This document shows positions 17,772 through 48,600 of a stretch of 64,000 nt of DNA, one piece after another (positions within the stretch are counted from its first letter, which is position 1; every line of letters starts with the position of its first letter). Below the pieces are notes generated by a model, which worked only from the letters and a program-made list of their open reading frames with translations, was not told the origin of the DNA and searched no databases. A program made the position numbers and the translations under genes. The stretch covers positions 992,001 to 1,056,000 of the forward strand of contig OZ242220.1 in NCBI GenBank assembly GCA_965206745.1, written 5' to 3'. The stretch comes from Nitrosopumilus sp. (lineage in GTDB: Archaea > Thermoproteota > Nitrososphaeria > Nitrososphaerales > Nitrosopumilaceae).

Positions 17772-18028
17772 GGTTCTGTGAATATATTTAAGCCCTTGTA
17801 TGGCTGTTTTATCGACAAGAGTCAGGATTGTTTTTGGAATTTTTGGCAGATACTCAAAATTTTCTCATGGTATACCCTACTCTAAAAAGAACTGGCACCA
17901 TTCTATAGTATCATTCAACGGTATTACCATGCAACGATATTACCATCAGAAAAAAACCAGCATTCCAGGATATCGATTTCCCGGGAACAGTCATGCAAAT
18001 TGTGCATAACTCACGTTAAGAGGGATTC

Positions 18029-18049
18029 AAAAAAAGGAAAAAAGGAAAA
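18029..18049 (-). terminator. U-rich archaeal terminator of the S-layer gene
   Basis: TTTTCCTTTTTTCCTTTTTTT on the minus strand ~20 nt after the stop; duplicated at 39058-39078. Confidence 0.6.
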
Positions 18050-18066
18050 TTTGAACTAGTTTGTTT

Positions 18067-21000
18067 CTAACTTACGGTTATCTCTGTACTAACTGGTGGA
18101 GATAGTGCTGTCGGATTGCTCAAGGATTCCCATGCAAATGCAGTGATTTTGTAATCTCCTGCACTAGTTGGAGTCCATGAAACTGCCGAGCTAAATGACT
18201 GACCGCCATATAGTGAGCCTATAATCCACGAGAGTGAGACTGTAACGCCGTTACCATCTTGAATCTGTACCAAGTATGCAAATTCTTGATCCTTGTCCTG
18301 ACCACTTGCCAAATCGGCAGTAACCTGTACCTGTTGATCGACTGAAATAGTATCTAAACTATTTTCAAAGGAATCAAGAGGTCTCAAGTTGCTAACGACT
18401 ACCCTCTCTAGAGGTGGTACGACTGTACCAATCAGAGTGGTGGCAGTAATCTCAAGTTCATCTGCAGTTGAGTACGGATCTGGCAGGGTATTGTCCTCGT
18501 ATTCTACGGTGACTGTGTCACCTTCTGCGACTCTGAGTCTGTGACCTTCGGATTTATCGCCCAGTGTAAAGAACACTGTGCCCTCGAAGATACCAGTTGC
18601 CTCATTAGTCTCAGTTACGGTTAGGTCAATACCTCCAGAATCGGAGTCAGACCACACGTCGACATCAAAGTTGTCGACTGCTTCTGGATCCAAGTTAACG
18701 TCTGGGTCAATTACTCTTACAACACCTGTTCCGGTGGCCGGATAGCTTGCCTCTAACCACTGTACCTCACCAATATTCCATCTGATTAATGCTGAGCCGA
18801 CTACTGTCTCATCCTCTGAGAATTCAAAGGAGACTGTTAGTCCGTCATCATCATCAGCTTGTAGGAATCCGTTGGTTGGGCCTTCGCCTTCGGTTCTTGG
18901 TGATGTGTCATCACCTGCAACACCATCGGCATCATGGTGGAATCCTGTAAGGATTACCTCACCAGTAAAGATGCCTGTATCAGTACCAGTTTCAACAAGC
19001 CTGTATTGATCGAGATCGTTACCTCTGGTAGCGATCGTTACGGGATCCCTCTCGGTTTCTCCGATTTCGTCAACTAGGTCACTGTCAAAGTTGTGATCTG
19101 GTGCGACAATGGTAATGTAGACCTTGTCAGTCCATGTGTAGACCTTTTGGTCAAGCTCCACAGTTGCTCCAAAGTTTGAAGTGAACAATGTCAAGTTGAC
19201 ATCCTCATCTTCATCACCTACATAGTCAGAACCTGATGGACCCCAATCCGTATACTCTAAGAGGATCTCTTCCCCTCTTTCAAGAGGATCGCCATCCAAT
19301 GCTTCGGGAACTTCGATGACAATCTGGAAGATACCAGTACTGTCACCTGTTTCTCTAAAGTCGAGTGGTTCAGGATCAAATAGTGCTCCTGCGCCGTCAG
19401 CATCACCCATGGTGACAGTGGCAGCATCAGAATCCCATTCGATTAGGTCCAAGTCATAAGTCTCGGCCTGATCATTGTCCAGATCCAAGTCTGGCTCAAT
19501 GAGGGTCAAGATCATGTCAGATCCGATAATATATACAGATTTGTCAGATTGCAATACGCCGTTTCTCAGGTCAAATGTGGCTGAATCAGTCACAGTATTG
19601 ACATCACCAGAAGCATCAGTTGGATCAGTGTATTCAACTTGGAGAATATCTCCTTGTAGGATACAGTGCTTTCCTGGGATTACTGTGTCTTGCGGAACAG
19701 TAAATCTATCTAGTACGTCACCAGATCGACTGCCATCAGATATCAGATACTGAGTTGTATCTGGACATGATGAACTTGCCGGACCGTCAGTGTATCGGAC
19801 TGTGATATCAGCTTCAAATATGCCTGCATCTGGTGCGATTTCACTGATTGGGCCAAACTCTGGCACAGTGGATCTGTTTTGAGCTATATCGTCAACATTA
19901 ATCTTACCACCTTGGGTTGCCTCACCACCAGCGTATGTTAGTACGACTGTGTTTGAGCCTCTGATAACAGATACCTTGACAGGTCCTAATCCAGTTACTG
20001 GATCGACATATGCAATGGTATCTTCACCGGATGCTGAAACATCCCAATCTGGATCGTTAATTCTAACGTGAATCGTTAGATCTCCCGCGTTTAAGTATTC
20101 ACCAGAATCCAAACCAGTTGTTTGGTCGGAAATTCCGAGTCCATTTACACCTGATTGGTGGATTGGGAATAGTGAACGACGGTTGTTGTTATCGATACTT
20201 GGGGCATGTGAAGTGTTATCCTCAGGGTTATAGTCAGCAGGTATACCAAATGGTACTGGATAGACTGTTCTATCAAGACTTACCGAACCAGTGTTTGCGC
20301 GAACGCCTGCACTGTCTCCTACCTCAATGACTTCACCGCTAGCGTCTCTAAAGTCAACATAGTTGACTTCAATATCAAGACCTGTTGCGGTTTCTAATCC
20401 ATTAGTAGGATGGCACCATTGAGCTGGAATTTGGAAGCTGCCAACGAATCTGCCAGAGTCTCTGCTAGTCTCACCTAGAGTGAAACCAGTTGAACCCAAG
20501 CCTACATTGGCATCACTCCCTATACAGGTTGAATGTTCGCCTTCTGTCCAAGTTTGGTCATCAAATGTGACATCTAGTAGTCTGCCGAGTTGATCACCGT
20601 TACTTAGTGTAACAGATGTGCCTCCACCAGTTACGTGTGAACTGCCAACAACGTCATAGTTATCATCAGTAGCGTTTCGGACTATGGTATAGACGTCCTT
20701 CGTTTCAGAATCCACGTTCAGATCCAAGTCATCTACTGTAATTATTACGGTATCAGCAGTCTTGTATGAGTCGCTGTCAAATGATACGACACCAGAGTGG
20801 CTCGGAGCTGCTTCTTGATCAGATACCTGCGTTGAAACACCATCCTCACCCAAGTCAAAGTAAGTGACTCTGACATCATCTTCGTCAGTCAGATCCTCAA
20901 TTACGATGAAATCTGGGTCATCTGCGATTGTAGAGAGACCAAGATATGTACTTAGGTCGTTGATGTTTAGCTGGTTGATCATGGTGTATTCCAAGGTACC

Positions 21001-23232
21001 TGCAAAGGTACTTGTGTTGTCACCTGTCTCTTCAGCTTCAATTCTGATGATTTGGTTTGCGATCCTATCGGATCCTACCAAGCCGTCATTGTTGAAACCA
21101 AAGGAGAAGAAGTCTGCAACGATTGGATATTTCTTTGAACCGTCAACTACCATAGGAGGACTGAATTCAAATACTAATCCAACGTCGAAGGTCTCCCTAA
21201 GACTTGGACTAAATAGATTTCCTGTTACATCCTCAAGGGATAGATAATCCTGTGCGTCACCATTGGTAACTATTCTGACTGCGCTAGTACCGTTTTCGAA
21301 TGCACCAGTAGTAGCATTGATTGGCGTAGTGAATCCAGGATATACAAGATAGATATCCACACTGTTTTCAGCTGCACCTAGACTTCTAATGTCATAGTTG
21401 ATCAGGTTGAAGCCAGTGAAAGAGTCATCTCGGTTATCATTTATGCTGTCACGTATGTCTCTCATTGTAGAGCTCAAATCGATAGCAATTGAACCAATTG
21501 AAGTTGGAGTATCTGGTGCGTCGAATTGAATTATAGCTCGTTCACTAAAGGTTTCAACAGTTGCATTACCCTGTGTTAGAGCGCCAGTCATTATATCGAT
21601 TCTAGTTCTACCAGTACCATCACTGGATATAGAATTCGAACCCACACCGTCAGGACCTTCATCTATAAGATCAGCATGACCTACTACTCGCAGTACTCGT
21701 TCACTTTCACCCAAAGTGAATGGATCACCAAGGGTTATGGTTGGAATGAGTCCTACGTTTGGATCAAACAAATCCAAGTCTTCTTCAACTTTACTGTTCT
21801 TGTTGGCATCACCATCTATGATAATTACCGGGATTATTTCACCCGAGTTCCATTCATCATCAGATGCTTTGATGTCAATTACGGCAGTATCAAATTCGGC
21901 TGAAATTGAATGACCGACTTCATTGTACTCTATAACGGCAGTTGTGCCCCTTTCTGCATTACTTGTAATTTTCAATACTGATACATCTTGCTCATCATAT
22001 GTGGCAAAGATGCCAGTGTTGACCTCTTGTTCAGTAAGAGTTACAGGCCATGAACCTTCACCCAGTATAAGAGCGGGGTCGTTAGTACCTGTAGCGGTAA
22101 GATTATTCACCCCAAAGATATCAGGGTTGTTGGTATCACCGCTTGTACCTAAAATCACAAGATCAGTATCAACATTATCCTGAATGGTGACTACAGGAAT
22201 GTTTACATTATTTTGAGCAATAACATCAAGTAGCAATCTACAATTGGTTTCACACTGCATAGCACGACGTGAATCTTGAATATCGATTACATCACCAGCA
22301 AGTCGACCGTTCTCATCGAATACTTGGTAGTATACACCACCAGGTTGGATGTTAGATCCTTCTACACTTGCAAGGTTATTCTCGTCTTGGAGATTTGTAT
22401 TAAACGTCCAAGAGTCTTCGTCAGTTGGGTCGATGTTTAACCACCAGTCTGTAACTGTGGCATGCACTTGTGTATTATGTGAATACTTTGCCCTATCCAA
22501 TTCGAGCTTGGCAAATTGTTCAACGCTATCAAAGGTAAGTGTCGTTGATTGAACGCCACCTGCTGCATTGTATAGTACGTTGACATTTCCACCTTTTGCC
22601 AAATTGTATAGTTGTATGAAGGGCCAATAGTTTGGATTAATACCGATTTGTCCTGCTACTTCGGGAGATGGGAATCCGTTGATATCCCTCTCTTGACGAA
22701 GAACATTTTGGTTATCTGTATCGTCTAGTGGAGCAGTACAACGACCGTCATCCTCAACTGTGGGCATGGAGCCTACATACATTCCGACTGTTTCAGTTAT
22801 TGAAACTATACTACCACTGCCACTGATATCGGTATTCTCACTACAGAAAGTACCAAAGTCCAATCCAGAACCGGCAAATCGTTCTGCTACGGTTCCATCT
22901 GCGATTAGGGCTTGATCTTTATCTGCAAAGTAACCATACCAGGTACCATCAGAGGCTTGAACCATTCTAAGTTTGTTGCCATTGATGGTGACGTCAGGTT
23001 CACCTTTTGACTCGTTTGTCTCATTGATGTCAGAATTTATGACCTTGACCTCAATTACTTGAGGACCAGACATGTAGTTGTCAAACTGGGACTGTTCTGC
23101 GGAAACCCTTAGGTTAGCGTTGAGTGCAAATGCCTCCGGCGTTACGCCAGGTGCGGCAATTGTCAGACCACCAGCTAACATTATTGTCATAAGCGTTAGA
23201 CTAGTTATTTTTCGTTTTATTTCGTTATACAT
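18067..23232 (-). CDS. S-layer protein (Nitrosopumilus Nmar_1547/Nmar_1201 type), copy 1
   Basis: MYNEIKRKITSLTLMTIMLAGGLTIAAPG signal peptide; repeated ETGxxTGxFxG and IxDPDxNxD Ig-like motifs; very acidic; C-terminal AWESLSNPTALS. Confidence 0.9.
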   Translation of the reverse strand: MYNEIKRKITSLTLMTIMLAGGLTIAAPGVTPEAFALNANLRVSAEQSQFDNYMSGPQVIEVKVINSDINETNESKGEPDVTINGNKLRMVQASDGTWYGYFADKDQALIADGTVAERFAGSGLDFGTFCSENTDISGSGSIVSITETVGMYVGSMPTVEDDGRCTAPLDDTDNQNVLRQERDINGFPSPEVAGQIGINPNYWPFIQLYNLAKGGNVNVLYNAAGGVQSTTLTFDSVEQFAKLELDRAKYSHNTQVHATVTDWWLNIDPTDEDSWTFNTNLQDENNLASVEGSNIQPGGVYYQVFDENGRLAGDVIDIQDSRRAMQCETNCRLLLDVIAQNNVNIPVVTIQDNVDTDLVILGTSGDTNNPDIFGVNNLTATGTNDPALILGEGSWPVTLTEQEVNTGIFATYDEQDVSVLKITSNAERGTTAVIEYNEVGHSISAEFDTAVIDIKASDDEWNSGEIIPVIIIDGDANKNSKVEEDLDLFDPNVGLIPTITLGDPFTLGESERVLRVVGHADLIDEGPDGVGSNSISSDGTGRTRIDIMTGALTQGNATVETFSERAIIQFDAPDTPTSIGSIAIDLSSTMRDIRDSINDNRDDSFTGFNLINYDIRSLGAAENSVDIYLVYPGFTTPINATTGAFENGTSAVRIVTNGDAQDYLSLEDVTGNLFSPSLRETFDVGLVFEFSPPMVVDGSKKYPIVADFFSFGFNNDGLVGSDRIANQIIRIEAEETGDNTSTFAGTLEYTMINQLNINDLSTYLGLSTIADDPDFIVIEDLTDEDDVRVTYFDLGEDGVSTQVSDQEAAPSHSGVVSFDSDSYKTADTVIITVDDLDLNVDSETKDVYTIVRNATDDNYDVVGSSHVTGGGTSVTLSNGDQLGRLLDVTFDDQTWTEGEHSTCIGSDANVGLGSTGFTLGETSRDSGRFVGSFQIPAQWCHPTNGLETATGLDIEVNYVDFRDASGEVIEVGDSAGVRANTGSVSLDRTVYPVPFGIPADYNPEDNTSHAPSIDNNNRRSLFPIHQSGVNGLGISDQTTGLDSGEYLNAGDLTIHVRINDPDWDVSASGEDTIAYVDPVTGLGPVKVSVIRGSNTVVLTYAGGEATQGGKINVDDIAQNRSTVPEFGPISEIAPDAGIFEADITVRYTDGPASSSCPDTTQYLISDGSRSGDVLDRFTVPQDTVIPGKHCILQGDILQVEYTDPTDASGDVNTVTDSATFDLRNGVLQSDKSVYIIGSDMILTLIEPDLDLDNDQAETYDLDLIEWDSDAATVTMGDADGAGALFDPEPLDFRETGDSTGIFQIVIEVPEALDGDPLERGEEILLEYTDWGPSGSDYVGDEDEDVNLTLFTSNFGATVELDQKVYTWTDKVYITIVAPDHNFDSDLVDEIGETERDPVTIATRGNDLDQYRLVETGTDTGIFTGEVILTGFHHDADGVAGDDTSPRTEGEGPTNGFLQADDDDGLTVSFEFSEDETVVGSALIRWNIGEVQWLEASYPATGTGVVRVIDPDVNLDPEAVDNFDVDVWSDSDSGGIDLTVTETNEATGIFEGTVFFTLGDKSEGHRLRVAEGDTVTVEYEDNTLPDPYSTADELEITATTLIGTVVPPLERVVVSNLRPLDSFENSLDTISVDQQVQVTADLASGQDKDQEFAYLVQIQDGNGVTVSLSWIIGSLYGGQSFSSAVSWTPTSAGDYKITAFAWESLSNPTALSPPVSTEITVS

Positions 23233-23581
23233 GTTATTGATTTTTTACTCTGAAATGAGTATTTAATGTTAATGGACGAATCATTCACAAGATATGACCC
23301 AGATTTTGATCCCATATTCAGATGCAGAGCACGAATTGGACTTGAAAAAATCATGCCTGATGCAGGAAACGATTGGGAGGATATATTTTTCTGGAATTGA
23401 GATAATCTTTCTAGAGTCAAATGTATGGGTCATCTTGTAAATCTCTCATAGTCTGAATTTGCGTGATGTGAACAGAAAAGTTACTCTGAAGGACTTGCAG
23501 ATAAATATTGATGCCCCAATACAGGGTTACTCCAAGAGGCAAACAGACAAGATATTTACTTGAAATAAAACTTGTTCTCAT

Positions 23582-26943: not shown

Positions 26944-27547
26944 ATTTTGTTGCATGATTCTGCCTGTATCATCTTTTAGATCTCTTATTTAATAAAATTA
27001 AATCTAAAGGGCATCAAATAATTCATGTCTGTGTAAGCAAAAATTAGAATGATTGCAACAATAAACTCTGCAAACGAAGGTTACTTTCGCATCAATGTTG
27101 ACCTCATAGATGGATTCAAAAAGGAATTAAAAAGGATGAACAAGAAAAACCAAGAGGACAGTATCCAGACGAGATAATTATGATTCTTGCATATATCCAT
27201 CTCTACTATACATTGCCATACAGACATCGGGTCTGACAGAAACCTTGTTTGATGATAAAATCAAGGTTCCCTCATACAGTACTATATGAAAAATAAACAA
27301 GTTACAATGTGACTTGACCCAGAGCAAATATGCACATGGCAACATCACCATTGCAATTGACAGTACGGGAATAAAGGTAGCAGTCAGGGATGATTCGATA
27401 ATATACAAGCACAGCAGCATGAGATGAAACTCAAGGTCGCCGTACAACAACAGGACGGTACTGGTACGATTTCAGAGAGTGTGGTTTGGACTAGATTGTG
27501 CAGGGAGGCAAATAATCATCTGAATTCAGTGAGTCATGTAGCAAAGC
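26944..27547 (+). mobile_element. Internally deleted IS5-family (IS903-group-like) element, ~600 bp, non-autonomous
   Basis: Degenerate TIRs attttgttgcatgattc and gagtcatgtagcaaagc (cf. IS903 GGCTTTGTTGAATAAATC); broken transposase pieces KKELKRMNKK, YPDEIIMILAYIHLYYTLPYRH and ITIAIDSTGIKV. Confidence 0.8.
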
Positions 27548-30137: not shown

Positions 30138-30141
30138 TTCT

Positions 30142-32483: not shown

Positions 32484-32565
32484 TTTCAGCCTAGATTAAA
32501 AAAAGAGCAGAGGTCAGAATCTTTCAAATTCTGGAGTGAATATAAGAATTATTTTCACATACAAT

Positions 32566-32832: not shown

Positions 32833-33013
32833 CCATCAAAGAACATCACAAGATGTAAGAATGAGGTTTTTCTGTAATAATTCATTAATTTTTAGCATGA
32901 ATGGCATTACACTTTGAGAATTCATCGCATTTGAATTTAGTTGGTTTTAGAGTTTCCATAAGGGTGTGTTTCTTTGTTTAGACCTGGCAAATCAGCGCAC
33001 ACTGCAAGGCAAA

Positions 33014-35683: not shown

Positions 35684-35712
35684 AACAAGATAAGATTAAA
35701 CAGAAGAAAGGA

Positions 35713-36312: not shown

Positions 36313-36341
36313 GCTAAAATACAAGATGAATCTAGTGAAAA

Positions 36342-37639: not shown

Positions 37640-38131
37640 TTGATTAAAGATTACAGTCAAATCATGTCTTTGGATATTGCTTGGAAGAGTAATTTTTACG
37701 GAATTTCCTGGGCATATGAGAAAGACAGGCTAGTAGTCTCCACAGTATTTGAGGACAAAAAGGAAGCAATCGCAATTGCAAAAGAGATCGAGGATTGGAG
37801 TGATAAATTTACCCGATTAACTATAATTGAGAAGGATAATGACGAGTTTGCCATATGCTGCTATCAAGACCCGCAAATTTCAAAAAAGGAGAGTCATTTA
37901 GGGCTATTTCGGACAGGAATGAGACAGAGCGGTGGGTATGAACAGGCAAAGCCAATGATCGTTGAAAAACCACCACTATTACAAATAGCGTATGCAGCAG
38001 ATGTTCGAGATATGAACACATATGAGCAAATTTCACGGCTAGTTCCAATGCGAAAATGCAGGATCATATCTGAAAAAGACTTGAAGAAGCAAGAATACTA
38101 TTACGAGAAAACTGCAAGTGCACAGAATTAA
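37640..38131 (+). CDS. Hypothetical protein
   Basis: 163-aa ORF within AT-rich DNA. Confidence 0.6.
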   Translation: MIKDYSQIMSLDIAWKSNFYGISWAYEKDRLVVSTVFEDKKEAIAIAKEIEDWSDKFTRLTIIEKDNDEFAICCYQDPQISKKESHLGLFRTGMRQSGGYEQAKPMIVEKPPLLQIAYAADVRDMNTYEQISRLVPMRKCRIISEKDLKKQEYYYEKTASAQN

Positions 38132-38457
38132 AAAAAAGGTGAGATTCAAATGAATCTAAGATTGAATCATCACCAGGTATGGTCAGGTAACACAACTAAC
38201 TCAGATTCGATATAAAGCAACACTACTCTTTTGTACGAATAAATGATACTGACAAATCATTCATCTTTGTTAAATAGAAATTTTTACAGTCATATGATAT
38301 GGAAGATAGTAATAATCAACAAGAGTGGGAAGAAGTGATAGGCCTCGGATGGCTTGTCTCAGAGGAATAAATACAGGTTTACTGTATCCAGTCCAAATTC
38401 TAGGTGTGAATCAGAGACACCAAACTGCTTTAGAATTATCCAAAGCGTTTATTTTTT

Positions 38458-38835
38458 ACTTTGTTGTATGACTTGACTCATTCAGATGATCACCTGACAC
38501 AATCTAGTCCAAACTGCACTCTCTGAAATCATGCCAGTACCATCCTGTTGTTATACAGCAACTTGAGTTTCATCTCATGCTGCTGTGCTTGTATATTATC
38601 AAATCATCTCTATCTATTACCTCTATCACTGCACTGTCAATTGCAATAGTAATGATGCCATGTGTGTCTGCTAGGAGTCAAGATATAACAGATTTATTTT
38701 TCATACGGTGCTGTATAAGGCAACCATGACTTTATCATCAAACACGTATTCGGATCCGATGTCTGTATGGCAATGTACAGTAGAGATGAATCAGCAAGAA
38801 TCATCATCAATTCATCCAAATATCATTCTCATGGT
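38458..38835 (-). mobile_element. 3' half, with right TIR, of a second copy of the IS903-like element
   Basis: Reverse complement aligns with ~27150-27547; TIR actttgttgtatgactt at 38458-38474. Confidence 0.8.
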
Positions 38836-38874
38836 GGGTTCGCCTCCAAAAGGGAACCGGCAGCGTACAAGAGC

Positions 38875-38975
38875 ACCATGCAACGGTATTACCATGCAAC
38901 GGTATTACCATGCAACGGTATTACCATGCAACGGTATTACCATGCAACGGTATTACCATGCAACGATATTACCAT
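38875..38975. repeat. 16-bp tandem repeat ACCATGCAACGGTATT x5 plus one variant unit
   Basis: Units start at 38875, 38891, 38907, 38923, 38939 and 38955 (G>A variant). Confidence 0.95.
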
Positions 38976-41900
38976 CAGAAAAAAACCAGCATTCCAGGAT
39001 ATCGATTTCCCGGGAACAGTCATGCAAATTGTGCATAACTCACGTTAAGAGGGATTCAAAAAAAGGAAAAAAGGAAAATTTGAACTAGTTTGTTTCTAAC
39101 TTACGGTTATCTCTGTACTAACTGGTGGAGATAGTGCTGTCGGATTGCTCAAGGATTCCCATGCAAATGCAGTGATTTTGTAATCTCCTGCACTAGTTGG
39201 AGTCCATGAAACTGCCGAGCTAAATGACTGACCGCCATATAGTGAGCCTATAATCCACGAGAGTGAGACTGTAACGCCGTTACCATCTTGAATCTGTACC
39301 AAGTATGCAAATTCTTGATCCTTGTCCTGACCACTTGCCAAATCGGCAGTAACCTGTACCTGTTGATCGACTGAAATAGTATCTAAACTATTTTCAAAGG
39401 AATCAAGAGGTCTCAAGTTGCTAACGACTACCCTCTCTAGAGGTGGTACGACTGTACCAATCAGAGTGGTGGCAGTAATCTCAAGTTCATCTGCAGTTGA
39501 GTACGGATCTGGCAGGGTATTGTCCTCGTATTCTACGGTGACTGTGTCACCTTCTGCGACTCTGAGTCTGTGACCTTCGGATTTATCGCCCAGTGTAAAG
39601 AACACTGTGCCCTCGAAGATACCAGTTGCCTCATTAGTCTCAGTTACGGTTAGGTCAATACCTCCAGAATCGGAGTCAGACCACACGTCGACATCAAAGT
39701 TGTCGACTGCTTCTGGATCCAAGTTAACGTCTGGGTCAATTACTCTTACAACACCTGTTCCGGTGGCCGGATAGCTTGCCTCTAACCACTGTACCTCACC
39801 AATATTCCATCTGATTAATGCTGAGCCGACTACTGTCTCATCCTCTGAGAATTCAAAGGAGACTGTTAGTCCGTCATCATCATCAGCTTGTAGGAATCCG
39901 TTGGTTGGGCCTTCGCCTTCGGTTCTTGGTGATGTGTCATCACCTGCAACACCATCGGCATCATGGTGGAATCCTGTAAGGATTACCTCACCAGTAAAGA
40001 TGCCTGTATCAGTACCAGTTTCAACAAGCCTGTATTGATCGAGATCGTTACCTCTGGTAGCGATCGTTACGGGATCCCTCTCGGTTTCTCCGATTTCGTC
40101 AACTAGGTCACTGTCAAAGTTGTGATCTGGTGCGACAATGGTAATGTAGACCTTGTCAGTCCATGTGTAGACCTTTTGGTCAAGCTCCACAGTTGCTCCA
40201 AAGTTTGAAGTGAACAATGTCAAGTTGACATCCTCATCTTCATCACCTACATAGTCAGAACCTGATGGACCCCAATCCGTATACTCTAAGAGGATCTCTT
40301 CCCCTCTTTCAAGAGGATCGCCATCCAATGCTTCGGGAACTTCGATGACAATCTGGAAGATACCAGTACTGTCACCTGTTTCTCTAAAGTCGAGTGGTTC
40401 AGGATCAAATAGTGCTCCTGCGCCGTCAGCATCACCCATGGTGACAGTGGCAGCATCAGAATCCCATTCGATTAGGTCCAAGTCATAAGTCTCGGCCTGA
40501 TCATTGTCCAGATCCAAGTCTGGCTCAATGAGGGTCAAGATCATGTCAGATCCGATAATATATACAGATTTGTCAGATTGCAATACGCCGTTTCTCAGGT
40601 CAAATGTGGCTGAATCAGTCACAGTATTGACATCACCAGAAGCATCAGTTGGATCAGTGTATTCAACTTGGAGAATATCTCCTTGTAGGATACAGTGCTT
40701 TCCTGGGATTACTGTGTCTTGCGGAACAGTAAATCTATCTAGTACGTCACCAGATCGACTGCCATCAGATATCAGATACTGAGTTGTATCTGGACATGAT
40801 GAACTTGCCGGACCGTCAGTGTATCGGACTGTGATATCAGCTTCAAATATGCCTGCATCTGGTGCGATTTCACTGATTGGGCCAAACTCTGGCACAGTGG
40901 ATCTGTTTTGAGCTATATCGTCAACATTAATCTTACCACCTTGGGTTGCCTCACCACCAGCGTATGTTAGTACGACTGTGTTTGAGCCTCTGATAACAGA
41001 TACCTTGACAGGTCCTAATCCAGTTACTGGATCGACATATGCAATGGTATCTTCACCGGATGCTGAAACATCCCAATCTGGATCGTTAATTCTAACGTGA
41101 ATCGTTAGATCTCCCGCGTTTAAGTATTCACCAGAATCCAAACCAGTTGTTTGGTCGGAAATTCCGAGTCCATTTACACCTGATTGGTGGATTGGGAATA
41201 GTGAACGACGGTTGTTGTTATCGATACTTGGGGCATGTGAAGTGTTATCCTCAGGGTTATAGTCAGCAGGTATACCAAATGGTACTGGATAGACTGTTCT
41301 ATCAAGACTTACCGAACCAGTGTTTGCGCGAACGCCTGCACTGTCTCCTACCTCAATGACTTCACCGCTAGCGTCTCTAAAGTCAACATAGTTGACTTCA
41401 ATATCAAGACCTGTTGCGGTTTCTAATCCATTAGTAGGATGGCACCATTGAGCTGGAATTTGGAAGCTGCCAACGAATCTGCCAGAGTCTCTGCTAGTCT
41501 CACCTAGAGTGAAACCAGTTGAACCCAAGCCTACATTGGCATCACTCCCTATACAGGTTGAATGTTCGCCTTCTGTCCAAGTTTGGTCATCAAATGTGAC
41601 ATCTAGTAGTCTGCCGAGTTGATCACCGTTACTTAGTGTAACAGATGTGCCTCCACCAGTTACGTGTGAACTGCCAACAACGTCATAGTTATCATCAGTA
41701 GCGTTTCGGACTATGGTATAGACGTCCTTCGTTTCAGAATCCACGTTCAGATCCAAGTCATCTACTGTAATTATTACGGTATCAGCAGTCTTGTATGAGT
41801 CGCTGTCAAATGATACGACACCAGAGTGGCTCGGAGCTGCTTCTTGATCAGATACCTGCGTTGAAACACCATCCTCACCCAAGTCAAAGTAAGTGACTCT

Positions 41901-44318
41901 GACATCATCTTCGTCAGTCAGATCCTCAATTACGATGAAATCTGGGTCATCTGCGATTGTAGAGAGACCAAGATATGTACTTAGGTCGTTGATGTTTAGC
42001 TGGTTGATCATGGTGTATTCCAAGGTACCTGCAAAGGTACTTGTGTTGTCACCTGTCTCTTCAGCTTCAATTCTGATGATTTGGTTTGCGATCCTATCGG
42101 ATCCTACCAAGCCGTCATTGTTGAAACCAAAGGAGAAGAAGTCTGCAACGATTGGATATTTCTTTGAACCGTCAACTACCATAGGAGGACTGAATTCAAA
42201 TACTAATCCAACGTCGAAGGTCTCCCTAAGACTTGGACTAAATAGATTTCCTGTTACATCCTCAAGGGATAGATAATCCTGTGCGTCACCATTGGTAACT
42301 ATTCTGACTGCGCTAGTACCGTTTTCGAATGCACCAGTAGTAGCATTGATTGGCGTAGTGAATCCAGGATATACAAGATAGATATCCACACTGTTTTCAG
42401 CTGCACCTAGACTTCTAATGTCATAGTTGATCAGGTTGAAGCCAGTGAAAGAGTCATCTCGGTTATCATTTATGCTGTCACGTATGTCTCTCATTGTAGA
42501 GCTCAAATCGATAGCAATTGAACCAATTGAAGTTGGAGTATCTGGTGCGTCGAATTGAATTATAGCTCGTTCACTAAAGGTTTCAACAGTTGCATTACCC
42601 TGTGTTAGAGCGCCAGTCATTATATCGATTCTAGTTCTACCAGTACCATCACTGGATATAGAATTCGAACCCACACCGTCAGGACCTTCATCTATAAGAT
42701 CAGCATGACCTACTACTCGCAGTACTCGTTCACTTTCACCCAAAGTGAATGGATCACCAAGGGTTATGGTTGGAATGAGTCCTACGTTTGGATCAAACAA
42801 ATCCAAGTCTTCTTCAACTTTACTGTTCTTGTTGGCATCACCATCTATGATAATTACCGGGATTATTTCACCCGAGTTCCATTCATCATCAGATGCTTTG
42901 ATGTCAATTACGGCAGTATCAAATTCGGCTGAAATTGAATGACCGACTTCATTGTACTCTATAACGGCAGTTGTGCCCCTTTCTGCATTACTTGTAATTT
43001 TCAATACTGATACATCTTGCTCATCATATGTGGCAAAGATGCCAGTGTTGACCTCTTGTTCAGTAAGAGTTACAGGCCATGAACCTTCACCCAGTATAAG
43101 AGCGGGGTCGTTAGTACCTGTAGCGGTAAGATTATTCACCCCAAAGATATCAGGGTTGTTGGTATCACCGCTTGTACCTAAAATCACAAGATCAGTATCA
43201 ACATTATCCTGAATGGTGACTACAGGAATGTTTACATTATTTTGAGCAATAACATCAAGTAGCAATCTACAATTGGTTTCACACTGCATAGCACGACGTG
43301 AATCTTGAATATCGATTACATCACCAGCAAGTCGACCGTTCTCATCGAATACTTGGTAGTATACACCACCAGGTTGGATGTTAGATCCTTCTACACTTGC
43401 AAGGTTATTCTCGTCTTGGAGATTTGTATTAAACGTCCAAGAGTCTTCGTCAGTTGGGTCGATGTTTAACCACCAGTCTGTAACTGTGGCATGCACTTGT
43501 GTATTATGTGAATACTTTGCCCTATCCAATTCGAGCTTGGCAAATTGTTCAACGCTATCAAAGGTAAGTGTCGTTGATTGAACGCCACCTGCTGCATTGT
43601 ATAGTACGTTGACATTTCCACCTTTTGCCAAATTGTATAGTTGTATGAAGGGCCAATAGTCTGGATTAATACCGATTTGTCCTGCTACTTCGGGAGATGG
43701 GAATCCGTTGATATCCCTCTCTTGACGAAGAACATTTTGGTTATCTGTATCGTCTAGTGGAGCAGTACAACGACCGTCATCCTCAACTGTGGGCATGGAG
43801 CCTACATACATTCCGACTGTTTCAGTTATTGAAACTATACTACCACTGCCACTGATATCGGTATTCTCACTACAGAAAGTACCAAAGTCCAATCCAGAAC
43901 CGGCAAATCGTTCTGCTACGGTTCCATCTGCGATTAGGGCTTGATCTTTATCTGCAAAGTAACCATACCAGGTACCATCAGAGGCTTGAACCATTCTAAG
44001 TTTGTTGCCATTGATGGTGACGTCAGGTTCACCTTTTGACTCGTTTGTCTCATTGATGTCAGAATTTATGACCTTGACCTCAATTACTTGAGGACCAGAC
44101 ATGTAGTTGTCAAACTGGGACTGTTCTGCGGAAACCCTTAGGTTAGCGTTGAGTGCAAATGCCTCCGGCGTTACGCCAGGTGCGGCAATTGTCAGACCAC
44201 CAGCTAACATTATTGTCATAAGCGTTAGACTAGTTATTTTTCGTTTTATTTCGTTATACATGTTATTGATTTTTTACTCTGAAATGAGTATTTAATGTTA
44301 ATGGACGAATCATTCACA
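38945..44318. repeat. 5374-bp direct repeat, copy 2
   Basis: Matches 17916-23289. Confidence 0.95.
39096..44261 (-). CDS. S-layer protein, copy 2
   Basis: Same 1721-aa protein as 18067-23232 except GINPDYW vs GINPNYW. Confidence 0.9.
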   Translation of the reverse strand: MYNEIKRKITSLTLMTIMLAGGLTIAAPGVTPEAFALNANLRVSAEQSQFDNYMSGPQVIEVKVINSDINETNESKGEPDVTINGNKLRMVQASDGTWYGYFADKDQALIADGTVAERFAGSGLDFGTFCSENTDISGSGSIVSITETVGMYVGSMPTVEDDGRCTAPLDDTDNQNVLRQERDINGFPSPEVAGQIGINPDYWPFIQLYNLAKGGNVNVLYNAAGGVQSTTLTFDSVEQFAKLELDRAKYSHNTQVHATVTDWWLNIDPTDEDSWTFNTNLQDENNLASVEGSNIQPGGVYYQVFDENGRLAGDVIDIQDSRRAMQCETNCRLLLDVIAQNNVNIPVVTIQDNVDTDLVILGTSGDTNNPDIFGVNNLTATGTNDPALILGEGSWPVTLTEQEVNTGIFATYDEQDVSVLKITSNAERGTTAVIEYNEVGHSISAEFDTAVIDIKASDDEWNSGEIIPVIIIDGDANKNSKVEEDLDLFDPNVGLIPTITLGDPFTLGESERVLRVVGHADLIDEGPDGVGSNSISSDGTGRTRIDIMTGALTQGNATVETFSERAIIQFDAPDTPTSIGSIAIDLSSTMRDIRDSINDNRDDSFTGFNLINYDIRSLGAAENSVDIYLVYPGFTTPINATTGAFENGTSAVRIVTNGDAQDYLSLEDVTGNLFSPSLRETFDVGLVFEFSPPMVVDGSKKYPIVADFFSFGFNNDGLVGSDRIANQIIRIEAEETGDNTSTFAGTLEYTMINQLNINDLSTYLGLSTIADDPDFIVIEDLTDEDDVRVTYFDLGEDGVSTQVSDQEAAPSHSGVVSFDSDSYKTADTVIITVDDLDLNVDSETKDVYTIVRNATDDNYDVVGSSHVTGGGTSVTLSNGDQLGRLLDVTFDDQTWTEGEHSTCIGSDANVGLGSTGFTLGETSRDSGRFVGSFQIPAQWCHPTNGLETATGLDIEVNYVDFRDASGEVIEVGDSAGVRANTGSVSLDRTVYPVPFGIPADYNPEDNTSHAPSIDNNNRRSLFPIHQSGVNGLGISDQTTGLDSGEYLNAGDLTIHVRINDPDWDVSASGEDTIAYVDPVTGLGPVKVSVIRGSNTVVLTYAGGEATQGGKINVDDIAQNRSTVPEFGPISEIAPDAGIFEADITVRYTDGPASSSCPDTTQYLISDGSRSGDVLDRFTVPQDTVIPGKHCILQGDILQVEYTDPTDASGDVNTVTDSATFDLRNGVLQSDKSVYIIGSDMILTLIEPDLDLDNDQAETYDLDLIEWDSDAATVTMGDADGAGALFDPEPLDFRETGDSTGIFQIVIEVPEALDGDPLERGEEILLEYTDWGPSGSDYVGDEDEDVNLTLFTSNFGATVELDQKVYTWTDKVYITIVAPDHNFDSDLVDEIGETERDPVTIATRGNDLDQYRLVETGTDTGIFTGEVILTGFHHDADGVAGDDTSPRTEGEGPTNGFLQADDDDGLTVSFEFSEDETVVGSALIRWNIGEVQWLEASYPATGTGVVRVIDPDVNLDPEAVDNFDVDVWSDSDSGGIDLTVTETNEATGIFEGTVFFTLGDKSEGHRLRVAEGDTVTVEYEDNTLPDPYSTADELEITATTLIGTVVPPLERVVVSNLRPLDSFENSLDTISVDQQVQVTADLASGQDKDQEFAYLVQIQDGNGVTVSLSWIIGSLYGGQSFSSAVSWTPTSAGDYKITAFAWESLSNPTALSPPVSTEITVS

Positions 44319-44339
44319 TATAGAAATTATTTTGCCTCG

Positions 44340-44720
44340 TCATCAGTGTCTTCCTCCGTCCATTCTGGGTTGATTTTTCTGATTATTTCAGTAGGCATTA
44401 TGTCATCAAATGCGATCTGAGAGGTCACTCCAATGTATTATCTGCTCCTCTATCGTGAGATGGAGTCCCTCAAGCTTGCCGTTTGTCTGAGGGTGCTGTG
44501 ATCTTGAATTTATCAGATCAATTCCCAGATTGAAAAGATTTGCCTCAAATACGTGGATCTGCCACGATTTGGGGGAGATATCCTCTACGAATCCCCACAA
44601 AGCACAAGTCATTATCAGATAGGATGACGGCATGTACTCCGCATCGTTTTATTACATCATGGAGTACCAATACTGCATTCTCAGATGGGGTCTCGGTAAA
44701 TATAGTACAGAGTAAAAATT
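44340..44720 (-). mobile_element. Degraded IS481-like (integrase core) transposase fragment
   Basis: GVHAVILSDN and LGIDLINSRSQHPQTNGKLEGLHLTIEEQI in broken frames. Confidence 0.65.
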
Positions 44721-44859
44721 CGTCAAGATATCAAACAGTATCATTCAATAATCATAAAGATTAGGTATATCATATACATTTTATGCACACACTAGACAAG
44801 GATTTCAAAAACATATTCTGCAAAGAAAAAGATAGTAAGGTTGTTCGGAGAATGCTTGC

Positions 44860-45350
44860 AGTGTACACAGGGTATTGGGAAAAAGGATGACGTATGAAAA
44901 GACAGGCAGTATGCTTATGCGTTCCCCCGACATGGTATCAATATGAGTGCAAAGGTTCAAGGAGGACAGTCTTGATGTCCTCGGGGATCCCCCAGTGGTA
45001 GACATCCAAAAACACAACACAGGAAGATTGACACCATGATAAATGAGACATCCAATTTGCAGATCACGCCATCAGAGTTACATCATCATGAACAGAAACA
45101 TTTTGATAAAATTGTAGTGATGGTGGATATGACACCTCAACATCAGGCAAACAATATCAAAGAGATGCTCAAAAGATACAAGAACATCAAGATAATCTAT
45201 CTGCCAAAGAGATCTACGTATTTGAATGCAGCAGAGTGATGCGGACATCAGGCAAAGCAATGTCTACAGGTTTCTCAATACCATGATACAGTTGAGGCGA
45301 TGCGAGAAAAGATCCCTGAATATTTTAGGATAGTACTATTCAATCTGAGA
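44860..45350 (+). mobile_element. Degraded IS630-like transposase fragment
   Basis: HTH-like ...VQRFKEDSLDVL and DDE-like VVMVDMTPQHQ...IIYLPKRSTYLNAAE*. Confidence 0.65.
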
Positions 45351-45391
45351 AATGACGGCGTTTCTTCAGAGAAAGTTAAAATCCCGATGAA

Positions 45392-45581
45392 CTTTTGATT
45401 GTCATCATATGAGGTCAACGCCGATGCGAAAGTAACCTCGTCTGCAGAGTTTGCTATTGTAATCATTCCAATTCCGGCTCATACAGGTATATGAACTATT
45501 TGATGAACTTTAGCTTTTTTGATTTGATTTTATTAAACTAGAGATCTAAAAGAGGATGCAGGCAGAGTCATTCAACAAGGC
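45392..45581 (-). mobile_element. 5' half, with left TIR, of the second IS903-like copy
   Basis: Reverse complement aligns with 26944-~27122; TIR gagtcattcaacaaggc at 45565-45581. Confidence 0.8.
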
Positions 45582-45686
45582 AGATTTTTTTGGTTATTTT
45601 AGGAGCACAATCAGAACTTGAGGATTGGAGATGAACATAAATGAGAGGAGCTGTAAACATGCAAAAAGTGCTCTCATTTACAGACG

Positions 45687-48600
45687 TCACCCCAAGTTAG
45701 AGGATATAGATGTGGGAGGATCAGTACCAAGATAAAAATTGTCAATGAGAAAGCTATGATGAGAAGATTGATACGAGTGATCAACGAAGTATAGCTGTAC
45801 AGTAATATCGTCTTGCCTGAATATGTGCTCTGAGATATCGGTATTAAATGTATGCCATCCAGCATGACGGTTGTTAGGCGGATAGATGTTATTTTTATAC
45901 AAGGTATTACCAGATTGATCTTTTATTTCAAGATAGATATTCTGTCTTCTAAGATCATAAAAGAGGCCGGATACGTCGTAATCAACACCAATGTACAAAA
46001 GATCATCAGAACTATAATTTTCAAGAGATATGTTTCTGGTAATTCCGGCATTGATGTTAAATCCTTGACCAGTGACGAGAGCATATGGTAGGTGGGGATC
46101 ATATATAGGAGAAGAATTTATTATCTTAAATTTGTAATTACTAAAAGTGTTCTGACGGTCCGATTTATGCACGAATTCGAAATAATTCCAGGAACCCTTA
46201 TTTTCAAATGCATCGATTATACTTTCAAATTCAGGAGGAGTAACTGTGACTGTGAAGGTGTCCTGTACAGAGTTGTGATTTGCATCAGTTGCAGTACATA
46301 TGACTGTCGTGCTGCCTACAGAAAATGACTCACCTGAATGATAGTTACACAGTATGGTTACCGTGAAAAGGTCAGTGGCAGTTGAATTTTCAAAATCTAC
46401 AGGAATACGTTCAGCAGAGAACACCATTACATCGTCTGGGAAATTAACAAAGACGGGATTTGTCGTATCTTGAATCATTATACTTTGGGTAGCGCTAGCT
46501 GTATTTCCCAAGCTGTCTCTTGCAGTCCATGTCACTATTGTTTCACCCAGAGGGAAAGAGTCAGGTGCGTCATTAGTTGCATTTACCGAATCGACATTGT
46601 CTGTAACTGTTGCAGTTCCTATATCTACACTAGTCAGTATACCTGTGGCTTCGGTTGTAACATCAGGTGGCAAGTCAAGTATAGGATCCGTAATATCCCG
46701 TATGGTGACTCTCTGTGTGGCAGTTACAAAGTTGCCAGAGTCATCAGTTGCAGTATATGTTATCAGGGTCATACCAACTGGAAAAGAGTCAGGTGCGTCA
46801 TGAGTAATGGCAACATCAGTGTCCACAATATCACGGGCAGCAGGACTGCCAATATCAAGTGGGGTTAGTTGACCTGTAGCTTCGGCAATAATGTTGTGGG
46901 GAACTGCAATGATCGGGTTTGTGGTGTCCCTAACTGTGACTCTTTGGATAGCAGTTACGGTATTTTCTGCGCCATCCCTTGCAGACCATGTCACTATTGT
47001 TTCACCTAGTGGGAAAGAGTCAGGGGCGTCATTGGTTGCATTTACCGAATCAGTATTGTCTGTAACTGCGGCAGTTCCTATATTTACACTAGTCAGTATA
47101 CCTGTGGCTTCGATTATAATATCTGATGGCAAGACAAGCACAGGATTTGTAGTATCCTGTATTATTATTTTCTGGGTATCAGTTGCAAAGTTGTCAGAGT
47201 CATCAGTTGCAGTCCATGTCACAGTGGTTGTACCTGCTAGGAACGATGTTGGAGCATCACTGGTGATTACAGGTGTTGCATCTACTGTATCAGTTGCAGT
47301 GGCAGTGCCCAGTTGAATCATCGAGAGCAGACCGGTAACCTCCAGTGAGATATCATCTGGTGCCACAATAACAGGTTTTGTAGTGTCCCGTATGGTGACT
47401 CTCTGTGTGGCAGTTACAAAGTTGCCAGAGTCATCAGTTGCAATACATGTCACAATGGTTGTACCGACTGGGAACGAGTCAGGTGCGTCATGGATAATGG
47501 CAACATCAGAGTCCACGATATCACGGGCAGTAGGACTGCCAATGTCAAGTGGGGTTAGTTGGCCTGTAGCCTCGGCAGTAATGTCAATAGGAACTGTGAT
47601 GGTTGGGTTTGTAGTGTCCCTAACTGTGACTCTTTGGATGGCAGTTACGGTATTGTCTGCGCCATCCCTTGCAGTCCATGTCACCATTGTTTCACCTAGT
47701 GGAAACGAGTCAGGTGCGTCATTGGTTGCATTTATCGAATCGACATTGTCTGTAACTGTTGCAGTTCCTATATCTACACTGGTCAGTATACCTGTGGCTT
47801 CTGTTGTAACATCAGGTGGCAAGTCAAGTATAGGATCCGTAATATCCCGTATGGTGACTCTCTGTGTGGCAGTTACAATGTTGCCAGAGTCATCAGTTGC
47901 AGTATATGTTATCAAGGTCATACCGACTGGAAAAGAGTCAGGTGCGTCATGAGTAATGGCAACATCAGTGTCCACGATATCACGGGCAGACGGACTGCCA
48001 ATGTCAAGTGAGGTTAGAGTACCTGTAGCTTCGGCAATAATGTTGTGGGGGATTGCAATGATCGGGTCTGTGGTGTCCCTAACTGTGACTCTTTGGATAG
48101 CAGTCACGGTATTGTCTGCGCCATCCCTTGCAGTCCATGTCACCATTGTTTCACCCAGTGGAAACGAGTCAGGTGCGTCATTGGTTGCAGTTATGGAACC
48201 GGCATTGTCTGTAACTGTTGCAGTTCCTATATTTACACTGGTCTGTATACCTGAGGCTTCGATTATAATATCTGATGGCAAGACAAGCACAGGATCCGTA
48301 GTATCCTGTATTATTATTTTCTGGGTATCAGTTGCAAAGTTGCCAGAGTCATCAGTTGCAGTATATGTTACTATGGTTGTACCTACTAGGAACGATGTTG
48401 GAGCATCACTGGTGATTACAGGTGTTGCATCTACTGTATCAGTTGCAGTGGCAGTGCCCAGTTGAATCATCGAGAGCAGACCGGTAACCTCCAGTGAGAT
48501 ATCATCTGGTGCCACAATAACAGGTTTTGTAGTATCCTGTATGGTGACTCTCTGGATGGCAGTTGCAGAGTTGCCAGAGTCATCAGTTGCAGTATATGTT

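What the first reader, a model, noticed from the sequence alone, without database searches (positions are those of the whole stretch)
38458..45581. S-layer gene is enclosed as cargo between the two ends of a split IS903-like element
The uninterrupted element at 26944-27547 maps, on the minus strand, to 45581-45392 (left TIR plus 5' part) and then resumes at about 38835-38458 (3' part plus right TIR), with only about 30 nt unaccounted for. The 6.5-kb insert holds the full S-layer cassette, the 16-bp array and IS481/IS630 fragments. The 7.1-kb unit thus has the form of a non-autonomous transposon carrying an S-layer gene, a possible route for moving or swapping envelope genes in ammonia-oxidising archaea. 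The simpler alternative is serial insertion into a dead IS. The flanks (TTATTTTTT / AGATTTTTT) resemble a degenerate 9-bp target duplication but are too T-rich to be decisive.
Basis: partly seen in the sequence, partly recalled or inferred. Interest (0 to 1): 0.8.

Follow-up and report, generated by a model that had tools for sequence, protein, structure and literature searches.

The report
Duplicated S-layer gene inside dead IS
One of two nearly identical copies of this ammonia-oxidising archaeon's cell-coat (S-layer) gene sits inside the wreck of an old insertion sequence, but it most likely arrived by ordinary duplication and recombination, not as cargo of a jumping element.

Summary
A 604-bp IS5-family deletion derivative (26944-27547) matches, on the minus strand, 45578-45392 and 38824-38459. 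The two parts are collinear and do not overlap; 44 nt are missing. The 6.6 kb between them holds a 1721-aa S-layer gene, a 16-bp array, and IS481-like and IS630-like remnants.

The transposon reading is not supported.
- The S-layer cassette is one of two direct copies (17916-23289 and 38945-44318) that differ at 1 of 5374 bases. The other copy has no IS ends.
- The genome has no intact cognate transposase.
- IS copies are only 77-85% alike.
- The flanking T-rich 8-mers match at 5 of 8 positions, which decides nothing.

In most relatives the S-layer gene lies between a ThiF-type gene and a secreted-protein gene. Here that site holds a different gene, so both window copies are ectopic. Other genomes of the genus also carry near-identical ectopic S-layer cassettes, with no IS5- or IS481-type transposase nearby.

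Best reading: ectopic duplication into a dead, scrambled IS, with the copies kept alike by gene conversion. The interest is moderate and lies in the recurrent relocation and duplication of the S-layer gene, not in the IS.

The parts
38459..38824 (-). Right part of the split IS5-family deletion derivative (positions 229-492 and 904-1031 of the 1032-bp copy), with a degenerate right terminal inverted repeat at its low-coordinate end
   Evidence: The flank to its left is syntenic with relatives up to 38410 (G017) and 38461 (G012).
38826..38874 (-). Outer 3' flank of cassette copy 2, weakly homologous and in register with 17862-17905 next to copy 1
   Evidence: 76.7% over 86 columns, repeat units included; local score 13 against a shuffle mean of 7.8; 15 of 2000 shuffles reach it
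38875..38975 (.). 16-bp tandem array, 6.3 copies. Copy 1 has about two units of the same motif at about 17906-17945.
   Evidence: sequences
38935..44318 (-). Near-identical duplicate of 17906-23289. It spans the S-layer gene, 57 nt upstream and about 160 nt downstream.
   Evidence: 99.93% over 5384 bp; one difference in 5374 bp
39096..44261 (-). S-layer protein gene, copy 2 (1721 aa; D at residue 201)
   Evidence: 8c8k, 1971 bits, full length; no Pfam family
44262..44318 (-). Promoter segment carried with the cassette: a conserved palindrome and an AT-rich TATA-like box, shared with orthologues in relatives
   Evidence: alignment. Function is inferred from position and conservation only.
44319..44730 (-). 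Frameshifted C-terminal remnant of an IS481-type (HTH-rve) transposase gene. Its natural 3' end lies within a few nt of the cassette border.
   Evidence: no Pfam hit on the fragments themselves
44765..45391 (+). Degenerate IS630-type remnant (DDE_3 stretch 44976-45236, with stops and frameshifts). The outer limits are approximate.
   Evidence: related fragments elsewhere in the genome
45392..45578 (-). Left part of the split IS5-family derivative (positions 2-184), with a degenerate left terminal inverted repeat at its high-coordinate end
17906..23289 (-). Cassette copy 1 (S-layer gene 18067-23232, N at residue 201), lying between cbtB and dsbA, where three relatives have a response-regulator-like gene
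26944..27547 (+). Uninterrupted 604-bp copy of the same IS5-family deletion derivative (no transposase ORF)

Best explanation
The region 38459-45578 is an old, dead copy of a roughly 600-bp IS5-family deletion derivative that has been broken open and scrambled. It now holds remnants of an IS481-type and an IS630-type element, and one copy of a 5.4-5.5-kb S-layer gene cassette (promoter, gene, terminator, short flank). The cassette was not brought in by the IS ends. It is one of two ectopic copies of the genus's single-locus S-layer gene. In this lineage the gene was duplicated to new sites by recombination that needs no transposase (illegitimate or microhomology-type joining; this step is inferred). 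The ancestral copy was then lost. The two remaining copies are kept almost identical by gene conversion between them (inferred from sharp identity with decaying edges). Non-essential IS debris was simply a tolerated landing site, and 44 nt of the IS were lost at the joint. Shown: the split IS, the duplication, the vacated ancestral locus, the lack of a cognate transposase, and similar IS-free duplications in other genomes. Inferred: the joining mechanism, the order of events, and gene conversion.
For: (1) The duplicated unit is the cassette, not the TIR-bounded unit. 17906-23289 and 38935-44318 are 99.93% identical, with one difference in 5374 bp (N201D), and copy 1 has no IS sequence beside it. 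(2) In contrast, the copies of this IS in the genome are 77-85% alike over their longer aligned stretches, and the only DDE_Tnp_1 match in the genome is the frameshifted copy at C1:1757813-1758190. (3) The ancestral locus is elsewhere. In 8 of 10 same-genus loci fetched, the S-layer gene lies next to orthologues of G000 C1:299828-301156 (ThiF/ThiS) and/or C1:302394-303362: both sides in 6 loci, one side in 2. In 80 metagenome loci the upstream neighbour is present in 41 of 58 informative cases and the downstream one in 41 of 47. In G000 that gap holds a 366-aa ORF instead. The downstream breakpoint is reciprocal: the cassette copies keep the ancestral 3' flank up to about +70, and the old site resumes right after it. 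(4) Both window copies are insertions relative to G017, G012 and G014. (5) The same thing happens without a detected IS. G083 has two 5521-bp copies at 99.89%, all 6 differences lying in the first 27 nt; one copy is at the ancestral locus, the other sits between two genes that are adjacent in G000. G133 has an ancestral and an ectopic copy (91.9%). G161 has four ectopic copies, and its ancestral site (389 nt between the neighbour genes) is emptied except for the terminator. No IS5- or IS481-type transposase match at E<1e-8 was found in those 20-60-kb stretches; IS630 was not queried. (6) Edge decay of identity points to conversion of older copies rather than one fresh insertion. It is seen in G000 (3' flank about 70% alike and in register) and in G083 (first 27 nt). 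(7) Short-read unitigs of run X1 have about twice the depth on the cassette (686-813) as on its flanks (346-442). Unitigs bridge 44289-45451 and 44304-46500.
Against: No junction shows a diagnostic signature of the joining mechanism, because the pre-insertion sequences are unknown. The weak flank homology that supports 'old copies plus conversion' is short (about 45 nt; 15 of 2000 shuffles reach its score). Gene conversion would also erase the age of the insertion, so an old TIR-mediated arrival of the cassette cannot be excluded by identity values alone. Both IS ends are retained in the right orientation, and the flanks are not incompatible with a decayed 8-bp duplication (5 of 8). The right flank of the IS (45579-45686) has no counterpart in relatives, so no empty site could be reconstructed. 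No genome of the same species was available, and the best S-layer match outside G000 is 68% identical over the full length. The array side of the cassette (38875-38975) cannot be bridged by 31-mer unitigs.
Confidence: 0.7

Rival explanations
1. One reading: the two IS ends and everything between them form a non-autonomous, MITE-like composite transposon. A cognate IS5-family transposase supplied in trans moved it, carrying the S-layer gene into this site.
For: Both degenerate terminal repeats are present in inverted orientation at 38459 and 45578. The halves are collinear and complementary. The T-rich flanks match at 5 of 8 positions, read against the 8-bp duplication seen in G089. Related intact IS copies exist in other genomes of the genus.
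Against: The twin cassette has no IS ends. There is no second copy of the 7.1-kb unit in this genome. None was seen in the 31 and 151 genomes searched with the S-layer protein or among 80 metagenome loci. The genome has no intact transposase of this type. 44 nt of the IS are missing at the joint, which a simple nested insertion would not cause. The left flank is syntenic right up to the IS end, as expected for a plain old IS insertion. IS-free ectopic cassettes in G083, G133 and G161 show that the gene moves without such ends.
Confidence: 0.05
2. A single very recent copy-and-paste event: copy 1 (or copy 2) was duplicated a short time ago and joined by illegitimate recombination into the IS debris. 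There was no older second copy and no gene conversion.
For: There is one difference in 5374 bp. The 5' border is sharp at -57. Unitig depth is about double.
Against: Homology continues at about 70%, in register, for about 45 nt beyond the 3' border. The array has 2 units in one copy and 6.3 in the other. G083 shows the same decaying-edge pattern. A fresh insertion should have sharp borders on both sides. The evidence is short and modest, so this rival stays open.
Confidence: 0.2
3. Assembly artefact: there is only one S-layer gene, and the assembler placed it twice.
For: A 5.4-kb repeat with one difference is hard to resolve with short reads. I could not see long reads.
Against: Each copy has its own unique flanks on both sides. 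Exact unitigs (no differing letters in X1, one in X2) run from the last 15-30 nt of the cassette into the IS481/IS630/IS5 debris and on to 46500. Cassette unitigs have about twice the depth of flank unitigs in X1. The copies differ at one base. Similar duplications occur in other complete genomes of the genus.
Confidence: 0.04

Closest known systems
IS5-family insertion sequences and their internally deleted, MITE-like derivatives
   Same: Degenerate terminal inverted repeats. DDE_Tnp_1 remnant in the 1032-bp genomic copy. An intact relative in G089 is 1013 bp long, has a 308-aa DDE_Tnp_1 + DDE_Tnp_1_5 transposase and makes 8-bp target duplications in 2 of 3 copies. The 604-bp form lacks positions 493-903 and has no ORF.
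   Different: All copies in this genome are dead. The copy at 38459-45578 is split, lacks 44 nt and has no clear target duplication.
Composite or cargo-carrying transposons (two IS ends mobilising a passenger gene)
   Same: A passenger gene lies between two ends of one IS type in the correct relative orientation.
   Different: There is no sign that the unit ever moved as a whole: no second copy, no clear target duplication, no transposase. The passenger's twin lacks the ends.
Ectopic gene duplication with concerted evolution (gene conversion) in prokaryotes, for example the cases surveyed in PMC6053082 (search listing and abstract only seen)
   Same: Paralogues within a genome are far more alike than orthologues between genomes: 99.98% against at most 68% aa identity over the full length. 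Identity decays at the edges of the tract.
   Different: Here the gene is the 5.2-kb S-layer gene of an ammonia-oxidising archaeon. The ancestral copy has been lost, so the gene has in effect relocated. I found no paper describing this for Nitrosopumilaceae in the searches.
N. maritimus S-layer protein (PDB 8c8k and related entries, 'Cell surface protein')
   Same: Full-length sequence match, residues 1-1721 against 1-1734, 1971 bits.
   Different: The relatedness is by sequence only; no structure was predicted here. This genome has two copies that differ at one residue.

Membership tests
IS5 family insertion sequence (the split element) | DDE_Tnp_1-type transposase gene | tested here: met
   The element itself is a deletion derivative without an ORF. 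The 1032-bp sister copy scores 60.4 bits for PF01609. The intact G089 relative scores 86.6 bits (PF01609) and 64.7 bits (PF13737).
IS5 family insertion sequence (the split element) | Terminal inverted repeats shared with other copies | tested here: met
   The ends of 10 left and 9 right copies align. The two ends of the split copy are degenerate versions, about 14 of 19 complementary, read.
IS5 family insertion sequence (the split element) | Fixed-length target-site duplication | tested here: inconclusive
   It is 8 bp in 2 of 3 G089 copies. At the split copy the 8-mers match at 5 of 8 positions in T-rich DNA.
Cargo-carrying non-autonomous or composite transposon | Both ends of one IS type flank the cargo in the correct orientation | tested here: met
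Cargo-carrying non-autonomous or composite transposon | A cognate transposase is available in the genome | tested here: not met
   The only PF01609 match in G000 is a frameshifted fragment.
Cargo-carrying non-autonomous or composite transposon | The whole unit has moved: further copies with the same ends and cargo, or an empty site | tested here: not met
   The twin cassette lacks IS ends. No other copy of the unit exists in G000. No close relative was found in 151 genus genomes or 80 metagenome loci. An empty site could not be reconstructed.
Nitrosopumilaceae S-layer protein | Full-length sequence similarity to the solved N. maritimus S-layer protein | tested here: met
   8c8k_A, 1971 bits, 1-1721 against 1-1734
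Nitrosopumilaceae S-layer protein | Forms the cell's S-layer lattice | not testable with these tools
   No structure prediction or experiment was done.
Paralogues under gene conversion (concerted evolution) | Within-genome identity far above between-genome identity | tested here: met
   99.98% nt against at most 68% aa over the full length to any other genome. The same holds in G083 (99.89%), G161 (95-97.5%) and G133 (91.9%).
Paralogues under gene conversion (concerted evolution) | Older, more diverged homology beyond the identical tract | tested here: inconclusive
   About 45 nt, in register; 15 of 2000 shuffles reach its score. In G083, 6 differences lie in the first 27 nt and none in the other 5494 nt.

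The most novel reading that the evidence does not exclude
The S-layer cassette (promoter to terminator) is itself a recurrently mobilised unit in this genus. It has been copied to at least six different ectopic sites in four genomes (G000, G083, G133, G161). The 3' border falls within a 13-nt stretch, about 70-83 nt after the stop codon, in every case, while the 5' border varies from -7 to -271. This could mean a preferred break or recombination site just behind the terminator. It could also mean a so-far unrecognised mechanism for duplicating and relocating the envelope gene, with copies then homogenised by conversion and the ancestral copy sometimes lost.
Probability: 0.2. Interest if true: 0.65.

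Novelty: new member of a known kind. Interest (0 to 1): 0.38.

Why it matters
The S-layer protein is the main envelope component of these ammonia oxidisers, and published work ties it to ammonium handling at the cell surface (abstract of PMC12153357 seen in the listing). It would matter if a transposon could carry it, but the evidence here does not support that. What the data do show is more modest and still useful. In this genome the S-layer gene has left a locus that is conserved across the genus, and it exists as two copies differing by one residue. Comparable duplicated or relocated cassettes occur in at least three other genomes of the genus. That bears on gene dosage of the most abundant surface protein and on how envelope variants could arise. 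It is also a warning for annotation and read mapping: a 5.4-kb exact repeat gives collapsed coverage. Finally, it shows that IS ends around a gene are not sufficient evidence of cargo.

Tried and rejected
Transposon test. I looked for a cognate transposase, for other copies of the unit and for target duplications. None supports mobility of the 7.1-kb unit.

Empty site. Relatives align up to the left IS end. Their continuing spacer is not found in G000, and the right IS flank has no counterpart. No empty site could be built.

Inversion as the cause of the split. The block 54483-61391 is inverted relative to G017, G012 and G014. Both IS halves lie at one junction in collinear order, and no inverted repeats link the junctions. 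I rejected this idea.

RNA-mediated copying. I considered it because 3' borders cluster behind the terminator. I rejected it because the G000, G083 and G161 copies carry promoter DNA (-57, -236, -82).

Horizontal acquisition. I rejected it as the main source, because promoter and terminator flanks match those of orthologues at the ancestral locus, and the old site resumes exactly where the cassette ends. No formal tree was built.

Private flanks of copy 1 (17806-17861 and 23290-23544). Only short matches turned up: 23-36 nt in 3 of 120 other genus genomes and 43 nt in 1 of 120. Their origin is unknown.

RNA genes. There were no Rfam matches at E up to 0.1 in 36000-47000 and no tRNA in the window.

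Pfam on the IS481-like fragments gave no hit. Identity rests on the G078 relative.

Sequencing runs. No RNA holder is listed. X3 and X4 (labelled 'RNA?' and 'DNA?', equal size, possibly one data set filed twice) cover only the gene, at 90-99% likeness, and not its flanks. Because their kind is a guess, I draw nothing from this about expression or about the context in that strain. The joints 38580->45439 and 38791->45408 in X1 most likely come from other IS copies laid piecewise, not from an unsplit allele. The cassette-to-array junction could not be bridged by unitigs.

The repeat finder did not list the degenerate TIR pair among its 25 longest inverted pairs.

Literature. The searches found no paper on S-layer gene duplication or relocation in Nitrosopumilaceae. 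From PMC6563490 and 10.1101/2024.04.23.590705 I saw only the passages returned by 'find'. Supplements were not opened.
Full report
OBSERVATION

The window is G000:C1:992001-1056000 of a 1.86-Mb, 41% G+C genome.

BLASTN of the uninterrupted element with its flanks finds two minus-strand matches:
- 45578-45393 (element 4-178, 78.6%)
- 38807-38459 (element 234-603, 78.5%)

A longer, frameshifted sister copy of 1032 bp lies at C1:1757571-1758602 and carries the only DDE_Tnp_1 signal in the genome (60.4 bits). nhmmer with that copy places its positions 2-184 at 45578-45392, and 229-492 plus 904-1031 at 38824-38459.

The halves are therefore collinear, non-overlapping and on one strand, and 44 nt are missing. 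The right half has the same 492->904 internal deletion as the 604-bp element. Both descend from one deletion derivative that once multiplied.

WHAT LIES BETWEEN THE HALVES

Going up the plus strand (the IS itself reads on the minus strand), the order is:
- IS right part (38459-38824).
- About 50 nt of cassette flank.
- A 16-bp array at 38875-38975, 6.3 copies.
- The 1721-aa ORF 39096-44261(-). It matches the solved N. maritimus S-layer protein over its whole length (8c8k, 1971 bits) and has no Pfam family.
- 57 nt of promoter.
- A frameshifted C-terminal remnant of an IS481-type transposase (44319-44730). It is 58% identical over 55 aa to residues 245-299 of a 346-aa HTH_28-rve-rve_3 ORF that is multi-copy in G078. 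Pfam did not score the fragments themselves.
- A degenerate IS630-type remnant (DDE_3, 30.5 bits).
- IS left part (45392-45578).

In G078 the IS481-type element ends 24 nt after its stop codon. In the window, the aligned tail ends within a few nt of the cassette border at 44318/44319.

A self-comparison of the window shows that 17906-23289 and 38935-44318 are 99.93% identical over 5384 bp, in direct orientation. Within 17916-23289 there is a single difference, which changes residue 201 (N or D).

The shared unit runs from 57 nt upstream of the start codon to about 160 nt past the stop, into the 16-bp motif. Copy 1 has about two units of that motif and copy 2 has 6.3. Copy 1 has no IS5, IS481 or IS630 sequence beside it. 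What has been duplicated is therefore the cassette, not the unit bounded by the IS ends.

Beyond the array, the two loci stay about 70% alike, in register, for about 45 nt, up to 1-2 nt from the IS half. In the shuffle test, 15 of 2000 shuffles reach the alignment score.

WHERE THE GENE BELONGS

In 10 same-genus loci fetched around the best S-layer matches, no window ORF of 100 aa or more flanks the gene, apart from one weak 25% hit in L015.

Instead, 8 of the 10 loci show the gene beside orthologues of G000 C1:299828-301156 and/or C1:302394-303362:
- both neighbours in L013, L014, L016, L017, L019 and L020
- one neighbour in L015 and L018
- other contexts in L021 and L022

The upstream neighbour is a ThiF-ThiS fusion. 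The downstream neighbour is a 323-aa protein with only a sub-threshold Filamin hit.

In 80 metagenome loci (S-layer identity 44-72% to the query), the upstream neighbour is present in 41 of 58 informative loci and the downstream one in 41 of 47.

In G000 the space between these two genes holds a 366-aa ORF without a Pfam family. It is a paralogue (88.6% nt) of C1:497410-498267.

The alignment of flanks shows that the window cassettes keep the ancestral promoter block (a conserved palindrome plus an AT-rich box) and the ancestral 3' flank up to about +70. The old site in G000 resumes with the very next conserved bases. The cassettes therefore derive from the ancestral locus and are not foreign imports. 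Both are now ectopic.

THE SURROUNDINGS

Window 1132-38131 is collinear with G017, G012 and G014.

Copy 1 lies between cbtB and dsbA, where those relatives have a response-regulator-like gene that G000 lacks.

The left flank of the split IS aligns with relatives up to 38410 (G017) and 38461 (G012), that is, up to the IS end. This fits a plain old IS insertion at that point. The right flank (45579-45686) and the 2804-aa HYR-repeat gene beyond it have no counterpart in the relatives' syntenic regions, so no empty site can be reconstructed.

The block 54483-61391 is inverted relative to the three relatives. This does not explain the split, because both halves lie at one junction in collinear order and no inverted repeats connect the junctions.

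TESTS OF THE TRANSPOSON MODEL

An intact relative of the IS exists in G089. It is 1013 bp long and encodes a 308-aa DDE_Tnp_1 + DDE_Tnp_1_5 transposase. It makes 8-bp target duplications in 2 of 3 copies.

The results against the model:
- At the split copy the corresponding 8-mers match at 5 of 8 positions in T-rich DNA, which decides nothing.
- No intact transposase of this type is in G000.
- IS copies in G000 are 77-85% alike over their longer aligned stretches, whereas the cassettes are 99.98% alike.
- No second copy of the 7.1-kb unit was found in G000, in 31 and 151 genomes searched with the S-layer protein, or in 80 metagenome loci. None of these is a close relative: the best full-length identity is 68%.

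A defining feature of a mobile cargo unit, evidence that it moved as a whole, was tested and not met.

THE SAME PHENOMENON WITHOUT A DETECTED IS

Of 151 genus genomes, 72 have a match at E<=1e-300. Besides G000, three carry recent multiple copies:
- G083 has two 5521-bp copies at 99.89%. All 6 differences lie in the first 27 nt. One copy is next to the ancestral downstream neighbour. The other is inserted between orthologues of two G000 genes that lie 10 nt apart.
- G133 has an ancestral-locus copy and an ectopic copy, 91.9% alike over 5284 bp.
- G161 has three copies at 95.3-97.5% and a fourth at 77-79%, all ectopic. Its ancestral neighbours are only 389 nt apart, and that spacer still holds the S-layer terminator region.

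No IS5- or IS481-type transposase match (E<1e-8) lies in those 20-60-kb stretches. IS630 was not queried there.

Across G000, G083, G133 and G161 the 3' border of the copied unit falls about 70-83 nt after the stop, whereas the 5' border ranges from -7 to -271.

READS

Logan unitigs of run X1 give depths of 686-813 for cassette pieces and 346-442 for flank pieces, roughly double. Unitigs run from 44289 to 45451 (X1, no differing letters) and from 44304 to 46500 (X2, one differing letter), across the cassette/IS481/IS630/IS5/flank joints. The tool warns that unitig depth is not a copy number, so I treat this as supporting evidence only. The array side cannot be bridged by 31-mers.

CONCLUSION

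The split IS is real, but it is the target, not the vehicle. The best-supported account has four steps:
1. The S-layer cassette was duplicated to ectopic sites by transposase-independent recombination.
2. One copy lodged in a dead IS remnant that also collected IS481- and IS630-type debris, with loss of 44 nt.
3. The ancestral copy was lost and its place was taken by another gene.
4. The two survivors are homogenised by gene conversion.

Steps 1, 2 and 4 are inferences from borders, identity patterns and parallels in G083, G133 and G161. The duplication, the vacated locus and the absence of a transposase are shown.

I put 0.7 on this account, 0.2 on a single very recent copy event without older homology, about 0.05 on the transposon model and about 0.04 on an assembly artefact.

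Noticed in passing
window 54483-61391, junctions 38461-54483 and 61392-62887: The block from the DEAD-box/MrfA-type helicase gene to about 61391 is inverted relative to G017, G012 and G014. Both junctions hold lineage-specific DNA, and no inverted repeats link them.
   Followed up: partly
window 16597-16821 and 17538-17771: Two copies of cbtB (PF09489, 33.2 and 31.4 bits; 93% nt identity over 224 bp) flank a DUF4443 gene (16900-17532) that is absent from the same place in three relatives. The gene looks inserted with duplication of cbtB.
   Followed up: partly
window 3113-10484 and 45687-54101: Giant HYR-repeat surface-protein genes (1663 aa plus 508 aa; 2804 aa) are paralogous (65-70% nt). 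Both are lineage-specific insertions relative to three relatives. One lies directly beside the split IS.
   Followed up: partly
window 45581-45619 and G000 C1:788433-788471: A 39-nt sequence that starts at the outer edge of the left IS end recurs, with one mismatch, at a distant locus. Meaning unknown.
   Followed up: no
G000 C1:301157-302393 (locus L033): The vacated S-layer site holds a 366-aa ORF whose 5' region (upstream region and first codons) recurs at about a dozen places in the genome. Its stop codon lies in what is conserved intergenic DNA in relatives.
   Followed up: partly
upstream of S-layer genes: window 44262-44318 and 23233-23289, and loci L013-L020: A conserved 15-nt palindrome directly upstream of an AT-rich TATA-like box is shared by all 10 aligned S-layer promoters. 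It may be a regulator binding site.
   Followed up: no
G161 C1:878378-925230 (L149-L151); G083 (L152, L153); G133 (L154, L155): There are multiple recent S-layer gene copies in three other genomes of the genus. G161 has four within 47 kb and an emptied ancestral site that keeps only the terminator.
   Followed up: partly
window 29500-38400: This stretch has low G+C (33-39% against about 41% genome-wide) although it is syntenic with relatives. It includes a matrixin-type metallopeptidase gene (34086-34985).
   Followed up: no
G000 contig C2 (2066 bp, 37.6% G+C): A small second contig of the assembly. Not examined.
   Followed up: no
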